A stretch of DNA of 40,790 nt from a virus: IMG/VR virus record IMGVR_UViG_2758568559_000001; one strand, 5' to 3'. The stretch's first letter is position 1, and each line of letters starts with the position of its first letter. A model generated the notes under the pieces. It had not been told where the DNA came from and did no database searches. It saw only the letters and a program-made list of their open reading frames with translations. This document shows, one piece after another, positions 16,949-39,087 of the stretch. A program made the translations under genes and the position numbers.

Positions 16949-18229
16949 TTAAAATAATCTATTTTCTAAAAGTTTAACCTTAGTAGGTTTTTGATATAAG
17001 ACTTTATAAACAAAATATCGCATTGCGTCCATTGCATGATCGTGCTGCTTTACTACTGCATCTTCTCCACGTTCTGCGGCCTTTTCGTCCCATACATAAG
17101 ACGATAACTCTTTAAATAGATTTTTGCAGTTTGGCGTAAATACTATTTTGCCAGTGTTCATAGCAGTTTGAGTGGCTCTGATACCGTCTAAAACATTATT
17201 ATTGGCCTTGATAACTGAGTATCCTCGTTTTCTTAAGACAGTTATAAAAGAAGCGGCTGAAGGGTCAACAATAATTCTAGCTTTAATATTTCCTAAAAAT
17301 TGTGCCATATCATTAGCATACTGTTCGTCTGTTCGTTGCTTTTGTGTGATACGGCCCGAATAATAATATTCTTTTAAACAATACCAGGTATCATCAAATA
17401 AGCCCCACATTAAAAATACAGTGGGGTTAAAAGTACCATAATCACAAGAAACATAATATTTACTAAACTGTACATTTTCTGGTGGAGACTTTACCATTGT
17501 GTTTTTATCAAAGTTATCATATACAATCCCTTCTGACAGTACCCATAGCCCTAAAATATAGCGCTGATAAAATACCCCTGAGTACATCTGTTCGTATCTC
17601 TTACGAATATGTTCAGACAGTGAAGGATTATCTGACATAGTAAAGTGAATTCTAATTGCATTTTTTTCGCTTAAATTGTCAATCCAATTTTGTTTAAACC
17701 AATGATACGGTCCAGCTGGGTTACAGTTAAACCACATTTTAGAGTTGTCAACAGAACAACGGGCTACTGCTTGATTAACAAATGATTCAGGCATTAAAGC
17801 CACTTCGTCAAAGAAAAATCCAGCTAGGGTTATACCTTGAACTAAATCTTGGCTGCCTTCATCCTTGCCACCAAATAAAAAGTAGTTATTAGTAACACCA
17901 TTTTTACTGATTTCTAGACGATTTTCGTTTCGTGCATCTTTAACAATAAAACCTCGGCCAAGTAACATAATTTTTAAGGTTCTAATAACGTTTCTTCTTA
18001 GTGAACCAATAGTTTTTCCGGCCATACCGAACTGTTCTTGATTAAAATTATTCATGGACCATAAAATATAAGATAATGACATAATTAATGTTTTGCCTGC
18101 ACGAACAGAACCATCACAAATAATAGTATCTTTATTTTTGGTATTATCGTATAGCCACCAGCTTAACACTTGAAGTTGTTTGCGTGAGAAGGTTTGAAAT
18201 TGAAATAGTGACCTATTGTTCATAATCAT
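16949..18229 (-). CDS. terL: Terminase large subunit
   Basis: 426 aa with Walker A-like DGSVRAGKT, FFDE (Walker B-like) and a C-terminal nuclease region. Overlaps terS by 17 nt. Confidence 0.9.
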   Translation of the reverse strand: MIMNNRSLFQFQTFSRKQLQVLSWWLYDNTKNKDTIICDGSVRAGKTLIMSLSYILWSMNNFNQEQFGMAGKTIGSLRRNVIRTLKIMLLGRGFIVKDARNENRLEISKNGVTNNYFLFGGKDEGSQDLVQGITLAGFFFDEVALMPESFVNQAVARCSVDNSKMWFNCNPAGPYHWFKQNWIDNLSEKNAIRIHFTMSDNPSLSEHIRKRYEQMYSGVFYQRYILGLWVLSEGIVYDNFDKNTMVKSPPENVQFSKYYVSCDYGTFNPTVFLMWGLFDDTWYCLKEYYYSGRITQKQRTDEQYANDMAQFLGNIKARIIVDPSAASFITVLRKRGYSVIKANNNVLDGIRATQTAMNTGKIVFTPNCKNLFKELSSYVWDEKAAERGEDAVVKQHDHAMDAMRYFVYKVLYQKPTKVKLLENRLF

Positions 18230-18887
18230 TACTATCCTTCCATGTGTTTGCTAGTGTGCTGGTAATTGCCTTTATAAAACTATCTTTATCCACGTTATTA
18301 TTATCTTCGTGCCCAGTGATAACATCAGCTGCGGCTTTCTTAATTCTGGCTTCTGCTTGAGCTATGGTTAGATTGGCCTTTTTCAAAGCACTATAATTTA
18401 TATCTCTCCATTGGTCAGGACAACGGTTTTTAAGCCAGTATATAATGGCTGTTGTGTCAGGTAATATTTCAGTTTCTGTCTGTGTAATAGCAATTCTTTC
18501 ATAAGTTGGCACACCATCAGCAGCTGCAATCACTAATTCTTCCTTAGTCATTTCTGGGTGCTCCACTCGGTATTTTCTCAAAAATTTTGTTCGTCTTGCC
18601 TTTAAAACAGTTTCATCAACTTTGACCATTTTATAAACAGTAGTGGTTGCTTTGCCTCCCAACGCCTTTTTTAAAAGTGCATTTTCAACCTCCATATCAA
18701 CTGGGGCTTTACCTTTTTTTAGGGACTCTAATATCTCTTTATGTTCCTTTTCCCACTTATAAAGTGTAGAAACATTAATATTCATTTTTTGCGCAATCTG
18801 TTTGTCAGTAAGGCCATGACGTGCCCACATTTCAATTTTACTAAGGCCATCTTTGGTCAACCACTTCGAATATTTAGGCTTTGCCAC
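18213..18887 (-). CDS. terS: Terminase small subunit
   Basis: 224 aa with an N-terminal HTH (LTDKQIAQKMNINVSTLYKWEKEH), directly upstream of and overlapping terL. Confidence 0.75.
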   Translation of the reverse strand: MAKPKYSKWLTKDGLSKIEMWARHGLTDKQIAQKMNINVSTLYKWEKEHKEILESLKKGKAPVDMEVENALLKKALGGKATTTVYKMVKVDETVLKARRTKFLRKYRVEHPEMTKEELVIAAADGVPTYERIAITQTETEILPDTTAIIYWLKNRCPDQWRDINYSALKKANLTIAQAEARIKKAAADVITGHEDNNNVDKDSFIKAITSTLANTWKDSNDYEQ

Positions 18888-18931: not shown

Positions 18932-19414
18932 TTAAAAATCGGCTAAGTTAATTCTTTTATTTAATATTCTAGTAATAAAAATTCCTAGAATCTGTGAAAT
19001 GAGCTGTCCTAAAGCTACAGTGGCGAATGTTGGAAGTATTGGCAGATTAGAAACAATATGAAGTTCAATGGCCACTAGAATAGTAGCAAGGGAAACAGAA
19101 ATAGCTGTAACTATTTGTTTAATTGTTAAGTTTTTTATGAAGTTATTAATTAATATTGCCGCTCCCAGCCCTATAATGGATGTGCCTACTCCAAAAACCA
19201 TATCTAACCATCCTAAAGGACTAATAGTATTAGCTAAAATGACGCCTAAAACTAAAGAAGGATAATATTTTTTATTAAACGGCACAAACTGATACATTAT
19301 ATTGGCAATTCTAACTTGAATCGCTCCAAAACTTATGGCTGAAAAAACTGTATTTAACACAAAAAATAAGACTGCTATAATAGCCGTCTTTGTAATAAAC
19401 TTGCTTGTTCTCAA
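18932..19414 (-). CDS. queT: QueT-family membrane transporter (ECF S-component type, queuosine-precursor uptake)
   Basis: 160 aa, about five TM helices. The N-terminal pattern TKTAIIAVLFFVLNTVFSAISFGAIQVRIANIM... is characteristic of QueT proteins. The TTG start abuts the stop of the preceding gene. Confidence 0.7.
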   Translation of the reverse strand: MRTSKFITKTAIIAVLFFVLNTVFSAISFGAIQVRIANIMYQFVPFNKKYYPSLVLGVILANTISPLGWLDMVFGVGTSIIGLGAAILINNFIKNLTIKQIVTAISVSLATILVAIELHIVSNLPILPTFATVALGQLISQILGIFITRILNKRINLADF

Positions 19415-20167
19415 TTATCTTTTTCCCTTTCTATCTACATATCTTTGGAACTTTAACCATTCTAGGTAATTATTTAATAGTACTTTTTGTTCATTTGCCC
19501 GCTGTCCTTCTTTTCGGGTTGTAGAAACAATTTGTCCATTAGAAAATTTATGAGCTTGGCCGAATCTGACCCCTGAGCTCCATGAGGTTGAGTCAACACT
19601 ATAAAAGCCATAATTAAAAGCATCTTTTCTGGTAAACGCCAATCCATGGACATTGGTTTGGTGTGCATTAGCATATGCAACCATTTTTTTAATTTTAGGA
19701 TATTCTTTTTGCGTAATTTCCTTATTACCTAACCCCCCTATACAGATATATTTATATTCAGCAACTATATCTTTATAAGCTTGCATTCCTCTAGACTTGT
19801 GCCATACAGGTATACATTGCTTTCCGGTTTCTTTTTCTAGAATTTTACGCATTCTTAATACTTTGGGATATCCAACGATAACGTCTATATCTAATTCAAT
19901 AAATCTTTTAATATCATATTTATTAATAAAATTAATATACTTGTATAAATAATCATCAAAATCAACATTGTTATTATTACTTGAAAATAATGTAAATGCT
20001 CCACTATCAAGTAAAAAAGCATCATTTTGATTTTTATTATTTAAAACTTGCATAACATTTTTATTATTTGTTAAATTGTAAAAACTCATTAAGCAATATT
20101 TTGACTGCAACATTTGGTCTAGAGTTAAGCCACTTATACATTCAAAACCTGCTAACATTAATCTCAC
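19415..20167 (-). CDS. dpdA: DpdA-like (TGT-superfamily) DNA-guanine transglycosylase
   Basis: 250 aa. The motif FLLDSGAFTLFS parallels the TGT substrate motif DSGGFQVFS. It also has ICIGGLG and YSVDSTSW acidic motifs, and no Zn-binding Cys cluster. Start is either GTG 20167 or ATG 20158. Confidence 0.65.
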   Translation of the reverse strand: MRLMLAGFECISGLTLDQMLQSKYCLMSFYNLTNNKNVMQVLNNKNQNDAFLLDSGAFTLFSSNNNNVDFDDYLYKYINFINKYDIKRFIELDIDVIVGYPKVLRMRKILEKETGKQCIPVWHKSRGMQAYKDIVAEYKYICIGGLGNKEITQKEYPKIKKMVAYANAHQTNVHGLAFTRKDAFNYGFYSVDSTSWSSGVRFGQAHKFSNGQIVSTTRKEGQRANEQKVLLNNYLEWLKFQRYVDRKGKR

Positions 20168-20747
20168 TCACCATGGCTCCTTCACTTTTAAGAAGCCACT
20201 GAACAAAGTCTGTCTCTTTGTTGGTTTCGGCGTTTTTATACTCGTTAAGTTTATTATTCAAGAATAGTAATGTATCTTGTGATACTACTACCTTTTTATT
20301 CTCCCACTTGAGGTAAAGTGTATTATCTTTTTTCTGCTGCTCTTCATCATCAAAAAAGATATCGTCTATATTTACATCGTTTTTTATTTGTTCAAATCCA
20401 AAATCTTCCATATCAAAATCAATAATATTCGCTAGTTCATCATCTAAGAACTCATAATCCCAAACTGCTATTTCACCCGTTTTGTTATCAGCTAAACGAT
20501 AGGCTTTGACTTGTTCTTTACTAAGATTTTTAGCCACTACTACTGGCACTGTGTCCATATTTAATTGTTTAGCGGCTTTATATCTTGTGTGACCAGCAAT
20601 AATTATATTATCTTTATCAACAATAATTGGTTGTTGCCAACCAAACTCTTTAATTGAATTAGCTGTTGCAGTTACTGCATCATCATTTTTTCTAGGATTA
20701 TTTGGGTATGGTTTAATATCACTTATTGCCATACTAATTACATCCAT
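20142..20747 (-). CDS. ParB/Srx-fold N-terminal domain protein (ParB-like nuclease domain; possible DpdB-like partner)
   Basis: ISDIKPYPNNPRKNDDAVTATANSIKEFGWQQPIIVDKDNIIIAGHTRYKAAKQL is a classical ParB N-terminal domain. It overlaps the dpdA-like start. Confidence 0.7.
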   Translation of the reverse strand: MDVISMAISDIKPYPNNPRKNDDAVTATANSIKEFGWQQPIIVDKDNIIIAGHTRYKAAKQLNMDTVPVVVAKNLSKEQVKAYRLADNKTGEIAVWDYEFLDDELANIIDFDMEDFGFEQIKNDVNIDDIFFDDEEQQKKDNTLYLKWENKKVVVSQDTLLFLNNKLNEYKNAETNKETDFVQWLLKSEGAMVSEINVSRF

Positions 20748-21040: not shown

Positions 21041-21063
21041 AAAAAAAGCACTCATTGGAGTGC
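21041..21063 (-). terminator. Strong intrinsic terminator downstream of the orphan 165-aa gene
   Basis: Minus strand: GCACTC CAAT GAGTGC followed by T7. Confidence 0.7.
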
Positions 21064-21086
21064 CTGAAATATTTTGTGTATTGGGA

Positions 21087-21584: not shown

Positions 21585-22119
21585 GTTGTTTCCTCTTTTC
21601 TTATAAAAACAGTTTATATGACTTAATTTTTTATATTTATCACTCTTGCTAAGTATTTATCGCTAACTGCCAAAAAACGCCCTCCACATTTCAATTCTGA
21701 GCGATTATTTTTAAAGTTACGATTAATTAATAGCAGAACGATTAAAATCGCTTAAAACAGCTTATATTGTGTTTTACAGCTAGTGCCTAATTTAGATCAC
21801 ATATTAATGACTAAAAACAGTAAAATAAATAAAATTGTTACATCTGAGAGAATTATTACTACATATGTTATGAAAATCATTTTTCGTGCTGCTAAATTAA
21901 GCTGGTCAGGAAAACGATCATTGGATATACATGCAGTCGTTATATACCTAAGTATGAAAAATAATATTATTACTATAGCCAATAGCAATATTTTAACTGC
22001 ACTCAAAGTTAAAGCACCTTCTTAAACGAAAAAGCTAGCCTTTCCTTAACTAACTTTTTCATGATTATTAAACATGTTCATGTGAAACACTCTTGCTTTA
22101 TTTTGCCTAAAAAGGCAAA

Positions 22120-22196
22120 ATCTAGTTGAGGAGTCGAACCTCGCCTTATTAGTAACCCAGCTGCTCTTAAACTGGACAGTACCGACTGCGCTAGAT
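22120..22196 (-). tRNA. tRNA-like element (non-canonical cloverleaf; possibly a degenerate class-II tRNA or a processing signal)
   Basis: 77 nt. Acceptor ATCTAGC/ACTAGAT pairs at 6 of 7 positions. The T-arm CGAGG-TTCGACT-CCTCA has a canonical T-loop. The 5-bp anticodon-like stem is CAGTT/AGCTG. The D hairpin has only a 4-nt loop, and the residue at the U33 position is A. Confidence 0.3.
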
Positions 22197-22210
22197 TGAA
22201 ATGTTTAGCT

Positions 22211-22364
22211 TAAATAGGGGGACTTTTGACACATCCTTTTATAATTTATTTTTACTCGCGGCAATGTTGCAGGCTTAATCAATTTAAAAGGGGAGATTCT
22301 TTTCACTTCCTTTTATAATTTTATTTTGCTCGTGAGTAATTCGGCAAGGCAGGAATCGAACCTG
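22211..22364. repeat. Two diverged tandem copies of a unit of about 73-80 nt. The copy at higher coordinates retains a canonical T-arm (minus strand CAGG-TTCGATT-CCTG, 22350-22364).
   Basis: Plus-strand alignment of 22211-22260 (TAAATAGGGGGACTTTTGACACATCCTTTTATAATTTATTTTTACTCGCG) with 22283-22334 (TTAAAAGGGGAGATTCTTTTCACTTCCTTTTATAATTTTATTTTGCTCGTG). Confidence 0.6.
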
Positions 22365-22500
22365 ATTTTCTATAATATTTTTATTTATCAGAGATTAATA
22401 AAAGGAGGAATGCTTCAATTACGAGAGGTTTTAAAAATGACGGAAAAATGAATTTAGTTGACTTTTTTAAGCACCATGCTTAAGCACCTTGCCGATAATG

Positions 22501-22523
22501 GAGGCTTTCGCCTCTTTATTTTT
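22501..22523 (+). terminator. Plus-strand intrinsic terminator-like hairpin inside the spacer
   Basis: GAGGC TTTC GCCTC followed by TTTATTTTT. There is no U-tract in the minus orientation. Confidence 0.4.
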
Positions 22524-22548
22524 CCTACAATACCATTTTGCCTTATTT

Positions 22549-22632
22549 TTTCTCCAAATGTTTACGCGATTTCTCCAAATTTTTACACCATTTCTCCAAA
22601 TTCTTACACCATTTTTACACTAAATTTACACT
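22549..22632. repeat. Three in-phase 21-bp tandem iterons (TTTCTCCAAAT-N-TTTAC-N-C-N-A) plus a degenerate fourth unit
   Basis: 22549-22569 is TTTCTCCAAATGTTTACGCGA. 22570-22590 is TTTCTCCAAATTTTTACACCA. 22591-22611 is TTTCTCCAAATTCTTACACCA. These are followed by TTTTTACAC/TTTACAC remnants. The array begins 3 nt after the arpU stop. Confidence 0.85.
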
Positions 22633-22634
22633 TT

Positions 22635-24450: not shown

Positions 24451-24867
24451 CTAGTCTAGATAGATAAAAGATTGTGGCACGTGCTTAACCCCGAAATCTA
24501 TTAGTAGCTTAGGTTCTTTATAAACAATTACACTGCTTAACTTATAAGCAATCGCTTTTGAATATCCTTGATAATAAGCACAATATTGCGTATAGGTTAT
24601 TCCAGCGGCGTGTTTTGCGATCTCCCATACTTTATGTGGACTACCTTCTATTATTTCTTCAATTTCAGCCTCACCAACTACTTGGCTCTGAGGAGCGGTA
24701 GAATAGAAAATTATCTTTTTTACGCTATTCTTACAGCGCCTTTTCCTGAATTCGTACGCCTTGCGGTTTTCAAGAATGGCTTTAGCATATTGGGGCTTAA
24801 TTGATAGCAGTATTGTTGACTTTAACATTGCTTTTCTATCCTTATTAACTTCACAAATTTTAATCAA
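24451..24867 (-). CDS. ASCH-domain protein
   Basis: SIKPQYAKAILENRKAYEFRKRR...VVGEAEIEEII is typical of the ASCH/PUA-like fold. TTG start at 24867 or ATG at 24828. Confidence 0.6.
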   Translation of the reverse strand: MIKICEVNKDRKAMLKSTILLSIKPQYAKAILENRKAYEFRKRRCKNSVKKIIFYSTAPQSQVVGEAEIEEIIEGSPHKVWEIAKHAAGITYTQYCAYYQGYSKAIAYKLSSVIVYKEPKLLIDFGVKHVPQSFIYLD

Positions 24868-25175
24868 ATATCAAAATCTTCAGGATGAACGTATACTCCA
24901 TAACTCCAAGAATCTATTAATATCTGTTCTTTAGCAGCTGCCTGTTCTATCAGTTCTTTACGAACCTTTGGATTAGTTTTTAAAAGGTTAAGTGCTAATA
25001 ATCTTTTTTCAGCACCTGACAGATGGTGATATGGCTCCTGGTCGACTATAATGTCTTCAGGATTTATATCCATGCACCAATAGTTATCATGTTCTTTATA
25101 TATTTTTATTGCTTCTTCTTTTGAATTAGCCGCAACTAGTGAATAGAACGGTGCCCAAAATCTAAAATACTTCAT
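24864..25175 (-). CDS. Hypothetical protein, paralog 1 of a tandem pair
   Basis: 103 aa. MKYFRFWAPFYSLVAANSKEEAIKIYKE... is collinear with the neighbouring 104-aa protein. Confidence 0.55.
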   Translation of the reverse strand: MKYFRFWAPFYSLVAANSKEEAIKIYKEHDNYWCMDINPEDIIVDQEPYHHLSGAEKRLLALNLLKTNPKVRKELIEQAAAKEQILIDSWSYGVYVHPEDFDI

Positions 25176-25186
25176 TTTTAATCCTC

Positions 25187-25501
25187 CTAGAAATCGTAGG
25201 TTTCGTCTGAATGCTCAGGCTGAATGTACTCTTCATAACTCAAAGCATCTATTAACATCTGTTCCTTAGAATTTGCCTGTTCAAGCAATTCTTTATCAGC
25301 TTTTGGATTCTGACTTAAAAGTTTAAGCATCAATATTTTCCTTTCATCACTGTCGAGATGATCTAAAGGAATTTGTTCCACTATAGAATTTATCTTCGTA
25401 TGACCATAGCCATTTTCTTCTTTATAAAGTTTTATTGCTTCATATGCTGAATTAGCTGCAATTAATGCATATTCTGGGGTTCTGAATCTAAAGTATTCCA
25501 T
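25187..25501 (-). CDS. Hypothetical protein, paralog 2 of a tandem pair
   Basis: 104 aa. MEYFRFRTPEYALIAANSAYEAIKLYKE...LLEQANSKEQMLIDALSYEEY parallels the 103-aa neighbour. Confidence 0.55.
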   Translation of the reverse strand: MEYFRFRTPEYALIAANSAYEAIKLYKEENGYGHTKINSIVEQIPLDHLDSDERKILMLKLLSQNPKADKELLEQANSKEQMLIDALSYEEYIQPEHSDETYDF

Positions 25502-34475: not shown

Positions 34476-34529
34476 CACTATTTGTAATATTTTTTTATTT
34501 TTATGTTTTCAACTATTACTTTTTGTGAT
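34455..34529. promoter_or_regulatory. Three operator copies in the cI/cro intergenic region (34455-34469 ATTACTAATAGTAAT, a perfect palindrome; 34474-34488 AACACTATTTGTAAT; 34515-34529 ATTACTTTTTGTGAT)
   Basis: Repeated 15-mers of the form ATTACTA-N-T-N-GTAAT, seen directly in the sequence. Confidence 0.65.
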
Positions 34530-34553
34530 ACCTTATACACAAGGAGAGCTGAC

Positions 34554-35000
34554 ATGACAACGGGCGAACGCATTTCAGAATTAAGATTAAAATTTGGATA
34601 TTCTCAACCTAAACTAGCGGAAAAATTAAATGTTAGTCAAAGTACTGTAGCTATGTGGGAATCTAATAAACGCAATGTTAATAATCAGGATTTAGTGCGT
34701 TTAGCTGACTTATTTAATGTTTCAACAGATTATTTGTTAGGTAAGACTAATAAAAAGCATTACTATGATTTAACAAATAAAGAACGCATTGACTTAGGTA
34801 AATTAGCAGATGAAATGTTAGCTGGTACTACTAATGAAGCCGAGGCTGATTTTTGGGGAGAGCCATCAACACAAGAACAAAAAAGTAATTTACGCACCGC
34901 AATTTTAACTGCCCTTGAGATAAATAAAACACAAGCAAAAAAGAAGTTTACACCAAAGAAATATCGTGATAATGATAATAATAATGTAAGCAATTCTTAA
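34554..35000 (+). CDS. cI-like / ImmR-like XRE-family repressor
   Basis: ATG 34554 with SD AAGGAGAG. MTTGERISELRLKFGYSQPKLAEKLNVSQSTVAMWESNKRNV...LADLFNVSTDYLLGK. The track start at 34503 lacks an SD. Confidence 0.8.
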   Translation: MTTGERISELRLKFGYSQPKLAEKLNVSQSTVAMWESNKRNVNNQDLVRLADLFNVSTDYLLGKTNKKHYYDLTNKERIDLGKLADEMLAGTTNEAEADFWGEPSTQEQKSNLRTAILTALEINKTQAKKKFTPKKYRDNDNNNVSNS

Positions 35001-35015
35001 GGGCTGGTGTAGTAA

Positions 35016-35447
35016 ATGTCGTATAATCAATCAATTTATGAATTATTAAGTAAAGTATATAAAAAGGTACATTCTTTTGATCCTTTTATAATCGCTAAAT
35101 ATTATGACTACAATATTATTTATCAAAATATTGGGCCATATACATTAGGAACGCGGATCCAATCATTTAGACGAACAACAATAATTTTAGATAGAAACCT
35201 AAAGGGAGCTGAACAACTACTGGTGCCATTGCATGAAATTAAGCATTGTATAGCTGATAAAGGGGTTGGGACTCCATTTTTGCGGAAATATTCTAGCTTT
35301 GTTCCTATATCAAAACGGGAAGCCACTGCTAATATTTTTGCAATGAATGCGCTTATAAACTTATATTCTTATGATTTAGATAATTTAACAAACTATCAAA
35401 TTTGTGACTACTTTAACTTAGATTATTACTGGAGCAATTTTATTTAA
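35016..35447 (+). CDS. immA: ImmA/IrrE-family zinc metallopeptidase (anti-repressor protease)
   Basis: HEXXH motif in LVPLHEIKHCIAD. Lies directly downstream of the XRE repressor, as in ImmR/ImmA pairs. Confidence 0.65.
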   Translation: MSYNQSIYELLSKVYKKVHSFDPFIIAKYYDYNIIYQNIGPYTLGTRIQSFRRTTIILDRNLKGAEQLLVPLHEIKHCIADKGVGTPFLRKYSSFVPISKREATANIFAMNALINLYSYDLDNLTNYQICDYFNLDYYWSNFI

Positions 35448-37325: not shown

Positions 37326-37622
37326 TTATTTCTTGCCTTTCATTCTAACATCTCTATCCTCTAAAGTTTCAATTTGAAATTTTAATCTGCGCTTATCTTC
37401 ATTTGGTAAAGAATTGATTAAATAATCTAGTGCTTCATCTATAGCTTCTTTCTGTGATTTATATAATCCAATGGCAGATAAAGCTTCAGCCTTATTCTTA
37501 ATATGATTATTTATTCTAACGTTTGCATAGAAAGTCACTCGATCTTTTTTACTATCATGTTCTGGTTCTATTTTTTCTAATGATATTTTGCCGTTGATTT
37601 TATAAGTGCCATCTTTAGTCAT
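37326..37622 (-). CDS. Small DNA-binding-like protein, paralog C of the parA-operon trio
   Basis: The likely start is ATG 37622 (SD GGAAGAG). YKINGKISLEKIE... and VRINNHIKNKAEALSA...EAIDEALDYLINSLP are collinear with the two upstream proteins. The track start at 37658 has no SD. Confidence 0.55.
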   Translation of the reverse strand: MTKDGTYKINGKISLEKIEPEHDSKKDRVTFYANVRINNHIKNKAEALSAIGLYKSQKEAIDEALDYLINSLPNEDKRRLKFQIETLEDRDVRMKGKK

Positions 37623-37920
37623 CTTTATCACTCTTCCAATTTTTAATTGCCTCAACATTATTTCTTATTAATTTTTTGTTTTGGGGTGGTAAATGTTGAA
37701 TGTATTCTTCCACTATATCAGTAACTACTTCATGCATTTTTTTATTCTCAATATTTGAAATAGTAGAAATAGCAGAATGAGTATCTAATGGAAGTCTTAT
37801 TGATTTTGGTAAATCTTTAGAAGCTAAACGTTTTTTTGGGTGTTCTAATATGTTTTGGGAATCATTATTTTCATCGATACATATTTTCCCATTTATTGTA
37901 AAATTTTTAAATTTATCCAT
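37615..37920 (-). CDS. Small DNA-binding-like protein, paralog B of the parA-operon trio
   Basis: 101 aa. FTINGKICIDEN... and IRLPLDTHSAISTIS...VVTDIVEEYIQHLP. Confidence 0.55.
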   Translation of the reverse strand: MDKFKNFTINGKICIDENNDSQNILEHPKKRLASKDLPKSIRLPLDTHSAISTISNIENKKMHEVVTDIVEEYIQHLPPQNKKLIRNNVEAIKNWKSDKDD

Positions 37921-37944
37921 ACCATTATCCCTTATCGTATAAAA

Positions 37945-38289
37945 TTATTTATTTTTAAGTTTATATTCTAATTTATCTTTCTGCTCTAGCATGTCTAAGA
38001 AGTCTTGATATACTTCCAGTCCTTGTGGAGTCATACTATCTAAGAAACTTTCTATTAGTATTGAAACCATTTCACTAGCCGTTCTTTTATCAGCAGTAGC
38101 TCTTGCTAAAGCGAGAACAGCATTTCTAGTATGGTTGTCTACTCGCATATTAACATCAAATGTTGGTACAGCTGGTGAAGGTTTATTGCTAAATCCTGCC
38201 TCGCTTCTAGATATTTGTTTTGCCTTAATAGTAACTTTTTTATCTGGATCTTTACTATTATCATTATTATGATTTAATAAATTACTCAT
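37945..38289 (-). CDS. Putative centromere-binding partner of ParA (ParG/RHH-like), paralog A
   Basis: 114 aa. The start abuts the parA stop. It has a disordered basic N-terminus followed by MRVDNHTRNAVLALARATADKRTASEMVSILIESFLDSM (strand-helix-helix-like). Confidence 0.55.
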   Translation of the reverse strand: MSNLLNHNNDNSKDPDKKVTIKAKQISRSEAGFSNKPSPAVPTFDVNMRVDNHTRNAVLALARATADKRTASEMVSILIESFLDSMTPQGLEVYQDFLDMLEQKDKLEYKLKNK

Positions 38290-39087
38290 TTATTTACCTG
38301 CCCTTTGTAATAATTCTTCAGCTACTGCTTGATATGTTGAATGTGTCGCCTTATCCCAAACTGATTTAGGATTTTCGGTAATTCCTGTCATATCATATCT
38401 TTTTACTCTTTCCATTGCTGTTATTACATTATCAAAAATATTATCCTCTCCAAATTCTTTTATAGCAGTTTTTAAAACACTATTATCAATTTTGGATTGT
38501 CCTTTAGTAAGAACAGGCAAAATACCCAATATATCAACCTTTGAATTGAATTCATCAATCAAATTAGTTTGAATATAAGTTAAAAAACTTCTAGCGCCTA
38601 ATAAGGCTCTTTGCTGAGTTTGAAGCATTATTATAATTCTATCGCATGCCATAAATGCATTATCATTAGTTAAACTAAAAGTAGGGCTTACATCTAAGAA
38701 TATAAAGTCAAAATCGTTTTTAATAGGTGCAATTGAATTGGCTAAGTAAGAAACTTTATCCTTTTCGGGTATATCTTGTTTATCAACCCATCTGCTAAAT
38801 AAATTCATATCAGCTGCAGCAGGAATTAATGACAGATTTTGTTTAATTTCTATTAATCCATCTGTTATTTTTCTATTATTAATTAATAACGCAAATAATG
38901 AAGGATCAATTACTACATCACTATTTTCCTGGCTTTTTGTTTTTAACATAAGATCAGTTAAATTTGCTTGTGGGTCACAATCTATTAATAATATTTTATA
39001 GCCCATAGAAGCCAATTCCCATCCTAAAAGTGCTGTGGTTGAAGTTTTCCCAGTACCGCCTTTTTCATTTGCACAACTAATAATCAT
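38290..39087 (-). CDS. parA: ParA-family partition ATPase (type Ib-like)
   Basis: Deviant Walker A NEKGGTGKTST, LIDCDPQANLT and FIFLDVSP. 265 aa. SD GGGAGGG. Confidence 0.9.
   Translation of the reverse strand: MIISCANEKGGTGKTSTTALLGWELASMGYKILLIDCDPQANLTDLMLKTKSQENSDVVIDPSLFALLINNRKITDGLIEIKQNLSLIPAAADMNLFSRWVDKQDIPEKDKVSYLANSIAPIKNDFDFIFLDVSPTFSLTNDNAFMACDRIIIMLQTQQRALLGARSFLTYIQTNLIDEFNSKVDILGILPVLTKGQSKIDNSVLKTAIKEFGEDNIFDNVITAMERVKRYDMTGITENPKSVWDKATHSTYQAVAEELLQRAGK

What the first reader, a model, noticed from the sequence alone, without database searches (positions are those of the whole stretch)
18932..20747. ParB-like + DpdA-like transglycosylase + QueT transporter cassette: salvage-dependent 7-deazaguanine modification of phage DNA?
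- Three translationally coupled genes sit at the head of the late operon, directly upstream of terS. This is where a DNA-modifying activity would act just before packaging.
- The 250-aa protein carries LDSGAFTLFS, which parallels the DSGGFQVFS substrate motif of tRNA-guanine transglycosylases. It also has a VDSTSW acidic motif and lacks the Zn-Cys cluster, as expected for DpdA-type DNA transglycosylases.
- Its upstream neighbour is a ParB N-terminal-domain protein (…IIAGHTRYKAA). In bacterial dpd clusters the DpdA partner, DpdB, is ParB-like.
- Its downstream neighbour is a five-TM QueT-type permease whose TTG start abuts the dpdA stop.
- The replicon has no folE/queD/queE/queC-type genes. The modification base would therefore have to come from the host pool or be imported by the phage-encoded transporter.
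- A virus that brings its own micronutrient importer to hypermodify its DNA, presumably as anti-restriction, is an unusual architecture.
Basis: partly seen in the sequence, partly recalled or inferred. Interest (0 to 1): 0.8.

Follow-up and report, generated by a model that had tools for sequence, protein, structure and literature searches.

The report
Phage DNA base-swap cassette with importer
This phage carries a three-gene module (a ParB-like DNA-binding protein, a DpdA-type enzyme that swaps guanine in DNA for a 7-deazaguanine base, and a QueT importer for that base). It most likely disguises the phage's DNA from host restriction enzymes. This is a known strategy, and the only new element is the type of importer.

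Summary
On the minus strand, ParB_N (20142-20747), a DpdA-like protein (19415-20167) and QueT (18932-19414) overlap or abut, directly upstream of terS and terL.

- **The enzyme.** The 250-aa protein has no Pfam or PDB sequence hit. It does match PHROG 887 (4.8e-46) and aligns to the experimentally validated phage 9g DpdA (hhalign 98.7%, E 1.6e-16), with all catalytic motifs conserved. Its model (pLDDT 91.8) matches TGT structures best.
- **The context.** In 62 dereplicated related loci, every one carries a 7-deazaguanine supply module beside the gene: a YhhQ transporter, preQ0 biosynthesis genes, or QueT. A ParB-like gene lies immediately upstream in 58 of the 62.
- **The genome.** The complete 40.66-kb genome has no folE, queC, queD, queE or yhhQ.

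The salvage-dependent DNA-modification reading is therefore well supported computationally, though it is not tested chemically.

The design is not unusual, because DpdA-plus-transporter phages have been catalogued since 2019. The ParB-like protein is not a DpdB ortholog, and its closest relatives are fused to DNA methyltransferases. Bacterial DpdA does have a zinc site, so the missing one matches only the phage-type enzymes.

The new elements are QueT in place of YhhQ, which implies dependence on the host ECF energizer, and the near-universal ParB pairing.

The parts
20142..20747 (-). Standalone ParB N-terminal-domain protein (201 aa) with a GHTRYKA (GxxRxxA) nucleotide-binding-type motif. Proposed DNA-binding or NTPase accessory of the transglycosylase.
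   Evidence: Pfam ParB_N 3e-12. phrog_620 5e-55, and phrog_498 (DNA methyltransferase, N-terminal part) 7.9e-42. PDB Spo0J 6sdk 3.7e-9. A ParB-like ORF lies immediately upstream of the DpdA-like gene in 58 of 62 dereplicated loci. GxxRxxA is present in 107 of 133 unique DpdA-adjacent ParB ORFs, all 250 aa or shorter.
19415..20167 (-). Minimal (250 aa), zinc-less, phage-type DpdA: predicted DNA guanine / 7-deazaguanine transglycosylase. Proposed catalytic residues are D54 (acid/base), D95, H123, G144-G145 and D192 (nucleophile).
   Evidence: phrog_887 4.8e-46. hhalign against phage 9g DpdA: 98.7%, E 1.6e-16, 229 columns. AF2 pLDDT 91.8, pTM 0.90. Foldseek top 11 PDB hits are TGT. BFVD hits are phage 'queuine tRNA-ribosyltransferases', TM up to 0.83. 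Invariant residues. Supply module adjacent in 62 of 62 loci.
18932..19414 (-). QueT, the substrate-capture (S) component of an ECF transporter for queuosine precursors (preQ0/preQ1). Its TTG start abuts the dpdA stop. It must use the host EcfAA'T energizing module.
   Evidence: Pfam PF06177 1.8e-27, 96.8 bits against a cut-off of 33.7. 5-6 hydrophobic helices. The same gene order occurs in five other phage or prophage contigs. Relatives at >=48% identity appear to be phage-borne; at least five sit on the same contigs as DpdA relatives. Chromosomal QueT proteins are 35-40% identical.
18213..18887 (-). Small terminase subunit (context: first packaging gene, 44 nt downstream of QueT).
   Evidence: phrog_309 7.8e-50. 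HTH domains.
16949..18229 (-). Large terminase subunit, PBSX type (context).
   Evidence: TIGR01547 1.6e-83. Terminase_6N and 6C.
21046..21065 (-). Terminator-like hairpin that probably marks the upstream boundary of the transcription unit containing the cassette.
   Evidence: Consensus scan: 8-bp stem followed by a T-run. No such site between QueT and terS on this strand.

Best explanation
The cassette is a salvage-fed 7-deazaguanine DNA-modification module of a temperate siphophage, which may itself be plasmid-like, infecting an Enterococcaceae or other Lactobacillales host.

Proposed steps:
1. The three genes are transcribed with the packaging genes (inferred).
2. QueT inserts into the membrane and docks onto the host's shared ECF energizer, EcfAA'T. 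It raises import of preQ0 and/or preQ1 from the medium, because the phage encodes no preQ0 pathway. The homology is shown. The substrate and the use of the host module are inferred from what is known of the QueT family.
3. The 250-aa DpdA, a TIM-barrel enzyme of the TGT superfamily, exchanges guanines in replicated phage DNA for the imported base. The chemistry is TGT-like double displacement, with D192 as nucleophile and D54 as general acid/base. The homology and residue conservation are shown. The activity is inferred.
4. The small ParB_N protein, translationally coupled to DpdA, probably binds phage DNA and may use nucleotide binding through GxxRxxA to load or position DpdA. This would be functionally analogous to the ParB-fold ATPase DpdB of the bacterial Dpd system, but the two are not orthologous. 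This is the weakest step.
5. The packaged genome carries dPreQ0, dPreQ1 or a mixture, and is partly protected from host restriction (inferred from studied DpdA phages).
For: DpdA identity:
- phrog_887 at 4.8e-46.
- hhalign against validated phage 9g DpdA gives 98.7%, E 1.6e-16, with LDSGAF, P..H, GGL, VHG.G.T and S.DS.SW aligned.
- The residues invariant across the window protein, its relatives, phiFN37, 9g and Bipper are D54, D95, H123, G144, H174-G175, D192-S193 and W196. Their spacing matches the Salmonella DpdA set D95, D130, H181, G206-G207 and D256.
- The model is confident and TGT is its top fold match. BFVD matches are phage DpdA-type proteins.

Context:
- All 62 dereplicated loci have a supply module next to the gene: 24 YhhQ only, 7 YhhQ+QueC, 22 with two to four preQ0-pathway genes and no transporter, 3 with the full pathway plus YhhQ, 5 QueT+methyltransferase, and 1 QueT only.
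- One family member is called as a DpdA-YhhQ fusion.
- The ParB-DpdA-QueT-terS-terL order is conserved at 82%, 63% and 55% DpdA identity, with different terminases.

Salvage dependence:
- The complete genome has no QueC, QueD, QueE, FolE or YhhQ.
- QueT-dependent uptake of preQ0 and preQ1 was shown in S. mutans (PMC12632869).
- A DpdA expressed alone inserts whichever base the host pool offers (PMC10516641 Table 2).

ParB:
- Present upstream in 58 of 62 loci, usually overlapping.
- GxxRxxA kept in 107 of 133 copies.
- The pairing also occurs in Fusobacterium phage phiFN37 and Mycobacterium phage Bipper.
- DpdB, a ParB-fold ATPase, is required for bacterial DpdA activity (PMC10164549).
Against: - No chemical evidence exists for any modified base in this phage.
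- The protein has no Pfam TGT hit and no PDB sequence hit, even with a profile. hhalign against E. coli Tgt is insignificant. However, validated 9g DpdA also has no Pfam hit.
- The Foldseek margin of TGT over generic TIM barrels is modest: 8e-7 against 3.6e-5.
- The QueT substrate (preQ0, preQ1 or queuine) is unknown. Expressing a membrane importer from a late operon may leave little time for it to act.
- 9g DpdA works without any ParB partner (PMC6884629).
- The closest relatives of this ParB_N mostly sit upstream of terminase genes without DpdA, and those inspected carry methyltransferase motifs (3 of 71 with DpdA). The adjacency could therefore partly reflect a shared genomic slot. No ParB-DpdA fusion was found among 10 extended family members.
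- The host is unknown, so it is unknown whether it makes preQ0 itself.
Confidence: 0.78

Rival explanations
1. DpdA and QueT work as described, but the ParB-like protein is not part of the modification machinery. It is a generic late-operon DNA-binding factor, related to packaging or to methyltransferase accessory domains. It sits next to DpdA only because both occupy the variable slot upstream of terS.
For: Only 3 of 71 loci holding the closest ParB_N relatives contain DpdA. Most lie directly upstream of the terminase, and the four long ones inspected carry amino-methyltransferase motifs. It also matches phrog_498. Phage 9g DpdA modifies DNA in E. coli without a ParB partner (PMC6884629). The C-terminal tail of the ParB-like protein is conserved only among the closest relatives. 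No ParB-DpdA fusions were found.
Against: 58 of 62 dereplicated DpdA loci have a short standalone ParB immediately upstream, usually overlapping the dpdA start. This holds across Firmicutes, Bacteroidota, Fusobacterium and Mycobacterium phages. Positional chance does not easily explain that consistency. Bacterial DpdA strictly needs a ParB-fold NTPase.
Confidence: 0.3
2. The cassette is a lysogenic-conversion module for the host. QueT and a TGT-like enzyme boost queuosine-precursor salvage and tRNA modification in the lysogen, and do not modify phage DNA.
For: QueT is normally a host tRNA-Q salvage transporter. PHROGs places family 887 under 'moron, auxiliary metabolic gene and host takeover'. 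The element is temperate, with repressor-like genes.
Against: The enzyme aligns with DNA-acting phage DpdA and not with Tgt. At 250 aa it has no C-terminal extension beyond the TIM barrel and no zinc site. It is coupled to a DNA-binding ParB_N and embedded in the packaging operon with no promoter or terminator of its own evident. No preQ1 riboswitch is present.
Confidence: 0.06
3. DpdA modifies phage DNA using the host's own preQ0/preQ1 pool. The phage QueT is dispensable, or imports a different compound such as queuine, or acts mainly to starve competitors.
For: DpdA-only phages can use host pools (PMC6884629; PMC10516641). Members of the QueT/QrtT and QPTR families differ in substrate. The host's Q pathway is unknown.
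Against: Every one of the 62 related loci carries its own supply module, and none relies on the host alone. The phage QueT clade is conserved and diverged from chromosomal QueT, which argues for selection on function in the phage.
Confidence: 0.1
4. The 250-aa protein is a TIM-barrel enzyme of another function, and the resemblance to DpdA is superficial.
For: No Pfam or PDB sequence hits. Generic TIM barrels such as pyruvate kinase also appear in Foldseek.
Against: hhalign 98.7% against validated DpdA with all catalytic motifs aligned. 62 of 62 loci are linked to 7-deazaguanine genes. PHROG 887 at 4.8e-46.
Confidence: 0.02

Closest known systems
Phage DpdA of the 9g type (DpdA1; Enterobacteria phage 9g gp03, shown to insert preQ0/G+ into DNA; PMC6884629)
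   Same: Homologous TIM-barrel enzyme (hhalign 98.7%). It shares the DSGAF, P..H, GGL, VHG.G.T and S.DS.SW motifs and also lacks a zinc cluster. Relatives of the window protein (BCD7, Bipper) are filed in the DpdA column of Hutinet 2019 Supplementary Data 1, not the DpdA2 column.
   Different: Only about 22% identical, and shorter (250 aa against 317). 9g encodes its own FolE, QueD, QueE and Gat-QueC and has no ParB-like neighbour. Here the pathway is replaced by an importer, and a ParB_N gene is coupled upstream.
DpdA + YhhQ/QPTR 'salvage-only' phages (Clostridium phage CDKM15 and halophage eHP-6 in Hutinet 2019; Fusobacterium phage phiFN37)
   Same: A DpdA with a queuosine-precursor transporter and no biosynthesis genes. 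phiFN37 has the same ParB / DpdA (39% identity) / transporter order. 24 of 62 related loci are of this type.
   Different: The transporter there is the secondary carrier YhhQ/Vut_1 (PF02592). Here it is the unrelated ECF S-component QueT (PF06177), which needs the host's EcfAA'T ATPase module.
Bacterial Dpd modification machinery DpdA/DpdB (Salmonella Montevideo; PMC10164549)
   Same: A TGT-superfamily DNA transglycosylase working beside a ParB-fold protein that has a nucleotide-binding motif. The active-site residues are equivalent.
   Different: Bacterial DpdA is larger, with insertions and a conserved CxCx2Cx22H zinc site, which is absent here. DpdB is a DndB/SspE-like ATPase with a DGQQR motif, whereas this protein is a classical ParB_N with GHTRYKA. 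The bacterial system is part of a restriction-modification island and does not serve as phage camouflage.
Chromosomal QueT ECF S-components of Lactobacillales (S. mutans QueT; PMC12632869)
   Same: Same Pfam family and size, with multi-helix membrane topology. The family imports preQ0 and preQ1.
   Different: Only 35-40% identical to chromosomal QueT. No preQ1 riboswitch or any other Rfam family was detected in the window. Encoded inside a phage packaging operon.
ParB_N (ParBc) domains fused to phage DNA methyltransferases (phrog_498; noted in PMC12783734 as 'function unknown')
   Same: The N-terminal ~120 residues are 55-75% identical to such proteins. They lie in the same position upstream of terS/terL.
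   Different: Here the domain is a standalone 201-aa protein. The neighbouring modification enzyme is a transglycosylase and not a methyltransferase.

Membership tests
DpdA (DNA 7-deazaguanine transglycosylase), phage type | Significant homology to an experimentally validated DpdA | tested here: met
   hhalign of alignment A1 against phage 9g DpdA: probability 98.7%, E 1.6e-16, 229 aligned columns. phrog_887 at 4.8e-46.
DpdA (DNA 7-deazaguanine transglycosylase), phage type | TGT-like TIM-barrel fold | tested here: met
   AF2 pLDDT 91.8, pTM 0.90. The top 11 PDB matches are bacterial or mouse TGT at E about 1e-6, TM about 0.6. BFVD matches are phage 'queuine tRNA-ribosyltransferases', TM up to 0.83.
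DpdA (DNA 7-deazaguanine transglycosylase), phage type | Three invariant active-site aspartates plus the His and Gly-Gly base-recognition residues (Salmonella D95, D130, D256, H181, G206-G207) | tested here: met
   D54, D95, D192, H123 and G144 are invariant across the window protein, its relatives, phiFN37, 9g and Bipper; G145 is invariant in the 38-sequence family alignment A1. The correspondence to Salmonella numbering is inferred from motif order and spacing, not from a direct structural superposition.
DpdA (DNA 7-deazaguanine transglycosylase), phage type | Genomic linkage to 7-deazaguanine synthesis or salvage genes | tested here: met
   62 of 62 dereplicated loci carry YhhQ, QueT or two or more preQ0-pathway genes (QueC, QueD, QueE, FolE) adjacent to the gene.
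DpdA (DNA 7-deazaguanine transglycosylase), phage type | Guanine-exchange activity on DNA, and modified bases in virion DNA | not testable with these tools
   Needs LC-MS/MS or enzymology.
Bacterial DpdA (bDpdA of dpd islands) | Structural zinc site CxCx2Cx22H and the Ins8 insertion, conserved in the bacterial family (PMC10164549) | tested here: not met
   250 aa with no conserved cysteine column. Therefore not a bDpdA. Phage 9g DpdA lacks it as well.
tRNA-guanine transglycosylase (Tgt, Pfam PF01702) | Match to the TGT profile, with a C-terminal zinc subdomain | tested here: not met
   No Pfam hit at E<=0.1. hhalign against E. coli Tgt gives probability 1.3%, aligning only the GGL segment. No PDB sequence hit. 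The relationship is visible only at the level of fold.
QueT (ECF transporter S-component for queuosine precursors, PF06177) | Profile match above the curated threshold, and a small multi-helix membrane protein | tested here: met
   96.8 bits against a cut-off of 33.7, covering the full 141-position model. 5-6 hydrophobic helices in 160 aa. NCBI names close relatives 'QueT transporter family protein'.
QueT (ECF transporter S-component for queuosine precursors, PF06177) | Works with an EcfAA'T energizing module and transports preQ0/preQ1 | not testable with these tools
   No ECF A or T genes in the phage, so the host module would be needed. The host genome is not available.
DpdB (ParB-fold ATPase partner of bacterial DpdA) | DndB/SspE-like N-domain with a DGQQR motif, plus an SspE-like C-terminal helical domain (PMC10164549) | tested here: not met
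   NCBIfam and Pfam give only classical ParB_N, parB_part and Noc matches. The motif is GHTRYKA (GxxRxxA). The protein is 201 aa and its C-terminal part has no recognisable domain. It may work like DpdB but is not a member.
ParB chromosome/plasmid partition protein | ParB_N plus a centromere-binding HTH domain, encoded next to a ParA ATPase | tested here: not met
   ParB_N is present, but no HTH or dimerisation domain was detected. The only ParA-like gene (38290-39087) is 18 kb away and is followed by its own DUF5388 proteins.

The most novel reading that the evidence does not exclude
Short standalone ParB_N proteins are obligatory, nucleotide-dependent loading subunits for a large clade of minimal, zinc-less phage DpdA enzymes. 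This would make a two-component DNA transglycosylase that evolved in parallel with bacterial DpdA/DpdB. ParB_N would then be a general adaptor that delivers different DNA-modifying enzymes (methyltransferases when fused, DpdA when separate) to phage DNA just before packaging. In this reading the precursor-supply slot is freely interchangeable between biosynthesis genes, YhhQ and QueT. The QueT version makes the phage's anti-restriction coat depend on hijacking the host ECF energizer and on preQ0/preQ1 made by neighbouring microbes.
Probability: 0.3. Interest if true: 0.6.

Novelty: new variant of a known kind. Interest (0 to 1): 0.4.

Why it matters
7-Deazaguanine DNA modification by DpdA is an established way for phages to evade restriction, so the system itself is not new. 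This case adds three things:
1. A second, unrelated importer family (QueT, an ECF S-component) in the role so far described only for YhhQ. The earlier phage surveys screened only for YhhQ.
2. A sampled set of 62 related loci, from a large clade with no Pfam coverage (6,430 clusters at 50% identity), in which every locus brings its own precursor supply. About half of them rely on import alone. That ties phage DNA camouflage to community cross-feeding of queuosine precursors, including in gut and food-fermentation bacteria.
3. A near-universal ParB_N partner, which offers a tractable model for the unexplained ParB domains found on many phage DNA-modification enzymes.

Tried and rejected
- **Megablast of the region against 50,697 phage records:** no match. 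There is no close sequenced relative, and tblastn gave only 12 distant records.
- **Sequence and profile searches of the DpdA-like protein against PDB sequences:** nothing meaningful.
- **Exact-sequence look-up of the window protein in public assemblies:** not on record.
- **Small ORF between the methyltransferase and QueT in L005:** I first read it as QueF-like. Pfam gave no hit, so the label was dropped.
- **My 'PRT' HMM:** it became contaminated with FolE hits, so I ignored it.
- **C-terminal tail of ParB as a DpdA-specific signature:** only the closest relatives matched, so the test was uninformative.
- **Rosetta-stone ParB-DpdA fusions among 10 extended family members:** none found. One DpdA-YhhQ fusion call turned up instead.
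- **Rfam scan for a preQ1 riboswitch:** no family matched in the whole window.
- **The 92-aa and 165-aa ORFs upstream of ParB:** no homologs in any related locus, so they are not part of the module.
- **Literature gaps:** the 2024 MMBR review (PMC10966956) is not held, and the Hutinet 2023 supplements are not held. One literature search was badly framed and returned nothing useful.
- **Subfamily placement:** direct comparison with DpdA2, DpdA3 and DpdA4 reference sequences was not done. Placement near DpdA1 rests on the 9g alignment and on the 2019 table.
Full report
**1. What is in the sequence.**

The window is a complete, circularly assembled phage genome. Its first 127 bases recur identically at the end, which leaves 40,663 unique bases. 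The finding covers three minus-strand genes:
- a 201-aa ParB-like ORF (20142-20747);
- a 250-aa ORF (19415-20167, GTG start);
- a 160-aa ORF (18932-19414, TTG start).

The first two overlap by 26 nt, and a GAAGGAG ribosome-binding site precedes the GTG. The TAA stop of the second is followed directly by the TTG of the third. terS starts 44 nt further on.

terS and a PBSX-type terL follow, then portal, scaffold, capsid and tail genes. A terminator-like hairpin at 21065-21046 precedes the unit, and none separates QueT from terS. The two small ORFs just upstream (92 and 165 aa) have no homologs in any related locus and are not part of the module.

**2. Identity of the three proteins.**

*ParB-like.* It matches Pfam ParB_N (3e-12), phrog_620 (5e-55) and B. 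subtilis Spo0J (6sdk, 3.7e-9). Its IIAGHTRYKAA segment fits the GxxRxxA nucleotide-binding motif of ParB CTPases.

*QueT.* It matches Pfam PF06177 over the whole model at 96.8 bits (cut-off 33.7) and has 5-6 hydrophobic helices.

*The 250-aa protein.* It has no Pfam, NCBIfam or PDB sequence match, even as a 38-sequence profile. The evidence that it is a DpdA comes from elsewhere:
- It matches PHROG 887 'queuine tRNA-ribosyltransferase' at 4.8e-46.
- Profile comparison with DpdA of Enterobacteria phage 9g gives 98.7% probability, E 1.6e-16, over 229 columns. That enzyme was shown experimentally to put preQ0/G+ into DNA (PMC6884629). The LDSGAF, P..H, GGL, VHG.G.T and S.DS.SW motifs all align.
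- 9g DpdA itself has no Pfam hit, so the Pfam silence carries no weight.
- E. coli Tgt is out of profile reach apart from the GGL segment.
- An AlphaFold model built on the family alignment is confident (pLDDT 91.8, pTM 0.90).
- Its best 11 PDB matches are bacterial and mouse TGT (E about 1e-6, TM about 0.6), ahead of generic TIM barrels.
- In BFVD it matches phage proteins annotated as queuine tRNA-ribosyltransferases, with TM up to 0.83.

*Catalytic residues.* D54, D95, H123, G144, H174-G175, D192-S193 and W196 are invariant across the window protein, its relatives, phiFN37, 9g and Bipper. Their order and spacing match the catalytic set defined for Salmonella DpdA in PMC10164549: D95 as acid/base, D130, H181, G206-G207, and D256 as nucleophile. 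That mapping is my inference from spacing. It is not a structural superposition.

**3. Genomic context decides the function.**

I collected 161 loci encoding relatives, 80 from IMG/VR and 80 from GTDB genomes plus one prophage. I searched them with iterated HMMs seeded on Pfam-verified examples. After dereplication at 90% DpdA identity, and requiring at least 4 kb of downstream sequence, 62 loci remained. Every one has a 7-deazaguanine supply module beside the DpdA-like gene:

| Module next to the DpdA-like gene | Loci |
|---|---|
| YhhQ/Vut_1 alone | 24 |
| YhhQ + QueC | 7 |
| Four preQ0-pathway genes (QueC, QueD, QueE, FolE), no transporter | 18 |
| Three pathway genes, no transporter | 3 |
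| Two pathway genes only (QueD + QueE; L151) | 1 |
| Full pathway plus YhhQ | 3 |
| QueT + class I methyltransferase | 5 |
| QueT alone | 1 |

One family member is even called as a DpdA-YhhQ fusion. This makes a function unrelated to 7-deazaguanine very unlikely.

The window belongs to the rare QueT-only type. The same ParB-DpdA-QueT-terS-terL order occurs in an Enterococcus sp. BWB1-3 prophage (55% DpdA identity) and in metagenomic phage contigs at 82% and 63%, which have different terminases. A Tetragenococcus MAG contig also carries both genes. The closest genomic relatives point to an Enterococcaceae or other Lactobacillales host.

QueT relatives at 48% identity or more appear to be phage-borne. 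At least five sit on the same contigs as DpdA relatives (matching contig lengths). Chromosomal QueT proteins are only 35-40% identical. The gene therefore looks like a long-standing phage resident.

**4. Salvage dependence.**

- Pfam scans of every substantial ORF except the two large tail genes, together with a six-frame HMM search of the circularised genome, find no QueC, QueD, QueE, FolE or YhhQ.
- QueT-dependent uptake of both preQ0 and preQ1 has been shown in S. mutans (PMC12632869).
- A DpdA expressed alone inserts whatever the cell pool offers: preQ1 in wild type, preQ0 in a queF deletion, and CDG in a queC deletion (PMC10516641).

The likely product is therefore dPreQ0 and/or dPreQ1, set by what QueT imports and what the host converts. 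QueT is only the S-component of an ECF transporter and the phage has no A or T components, so it must borrow the host energizer. That follows from established knowledge of ECF transporters (Rodionov et al. 2009, cited in PMC5699537). No preQ1 riboswitch or any other Rfam family is present.

**5. The ParB question.**

*In favour of a partnership:*
- A short standalone ParB_N ORF lies immediately upstream of DpdA in 58 of 62 loci, usually overlapping it.
- 107 of 133 unique copies keep GxxRxxA, and all are 250 aa or shorter.
- The pairing extends to Fusobacterium phage phiFN37 and Mycobacterium phage Bipper.
- Bacterial DpdA needs the ParB-fold ATPase DpdB (PMC10164549).

*Against specificity:*
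- This protein is not a DpdB. DpdB carries DGQQR and an SspE-like C-domain.
- Among the closest ParB_N relatives in IMG/VR, only 3 of 71 loci have DpdA.
- Most of those relatives sit upstream of the terminase, and many are 380-500 aa. The four long ones inspected carry methyltransferase motifs: DPPY in L171, L172 and L237, CPPY in L213, and FGGSGST or FGGSGTT in L171, L172 and L237.
- 9g DpdA works alone.

I conclude that ParB_N is a general accessory of phage DNA-modification enzymes, and that it is probably used by this DpdA clade. That step stays inferred.

The phage's own ParA-like gene (38290-39087) is 18 kb away and has DUF5388 proteins downstream. A partition role for the ParB-like protein is therefore unlikely.

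**6. Comparison with what is known, and novelty.**

- DpdA-only phages were the largest group in Hutinet 2019. [quoted passage not shown]
- Their Supplementary Data 1 lists DpdA+YhhQ-only phages (CDKM15, eHP-6) and files BCD7 and Bipper as DpdA.
- phiFN37 is already annotated as ParB / transglycosylase / precursor transporter.
- A 2019 mycobacteriophage paper suggested that the upstream ORF 'could encode a dpdB homolog'.
- ParBc-methyltransferase fusions are noted as functionally unexplained.
- The only paper in the searchable library that contains DpdA, QueT and phage together does not link them. The phage surveys screened only for YhhQ.

The finding is therefore a correct identification of a known kind of system, with a new variant of the supply component. 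It also comes with a clearer picture of how modular the supply slot is. The family is large: 6,430 clusters at 50% identity at E<=1e-3, and 544 at E<=1e-30. It has no Pfam coverage.

**7.

- The genes are on the minus strand.
- The architecture is common within the family, not unusual.
- Bacterial DpdA has a conserved zinc site, so its absence here marks the phage-type enzyme and is not a general DpdA trait.
- The ParB-like protein may be an analogue of DpdB but is not a homologue at family level.

**8. Verdict.**

Novelty is modest, and interest is about 0.4. No experiment has shown the modified base, so the functional claim remains a well-supported prediction.

Noticed in passing
window 37326-39087 (minus strand), the junction ORF at about 39.9-40.66 kb running into 1-127, and 34503-35447: The element looks like a plasmid-type prophage. 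It has a ParA-like ATPase (AAA_31/CbiA) followed by DUF5388 proteins, and a small serine recombinase (resolvase) that spans the circular junction. It also has a CI-like repressor with an IrrE-type peptidase. No integrase family was detected in any Pfam scan.
   Followed up: partly
window 21585-22634: A non-coding, AT-rich gap of about 1 kb (GC about 0.28) lies upstream of the late genes. It holds three 21-nt-spaced tandem repeats (22549-22619), a 49-nt direct repeat (22210 and 22284) and a 13-nt tandem pair (22467-22492). It could be a regulatory, origin or pac region. No Rfam family matches.
   Followed up: partly
L005 6695-7585, L015 6733-7569, L060 6707-7582 (also L033 and L102): In the phages that carry QueT but are not of the window's type (close relatives occur in Faecalibacterium genomes), a class I SAM methyltransferase (Methyltransf_23/11/25) sits between DpdA and QueT. 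The known dPreQ1 methylase DpdM belongs to the unrelated DUF3109 family. This enzyme could therefore be a different one that further modifies the inserted base, or an ordinary DNA methylase.
   Followed up: partly
L149, L152, L108, L114, L140, L073, L092: Seven dereplicated loci pair DpdA with YhhQ and QueC only, without QueD, QueE or FolE. This suggests import of the intermediate CDG and conversion to preQ0 by the phage QueC.
   Followed up: no
P0179 (465 aa): A family member is called as a single protein with DpdA at residues 1-240 and a Vut_1/YhhQ domain at 341-451. It is either a real enzyme-transporter fusion or a merged gene call.
   Followed up: no
L244 4805-5239 (Fusobacterium phage phiFN37); L020 5980-6357; L013 7268-7615: Extra conserved small genes lie inside the cassettes. 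A DUF6884 protein (6.3e-41) sits between DpdA and YhhQ in phiFN37. In L020 and L013 a ~115-aa ORF lies between QueC and QueD, and the L020 copy gives a borderline Pfam Pribosyltran match (26.7 bits against a cut-off of 26.3). Their roles are unknown.
   Followed up: no
window 24864-25175 and 25187-25501: Two adjacent paralogous ORFs of 103 and 104 aa begin MKYFRFWAPFY... and MEYFRFRTPEY.... They are a tandem duplication of an unknown early gene, with no Pfam family.
   Followed up: no
L164-L243 (e.g. L171 4980-6185, L172 4971-6506, L237 4974-7196): Many of the closest relatives of the ParB_N domain are 380-740 aa proteins sitting directly upstream of terS/terL. The four inspected carry amino-methyltransferase motifs (DPPY or CPPY, FGGSGST). 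L237 also looks as if a large insertion interrupts the methyltransferase, possibly an intein.
   Followed up: partly
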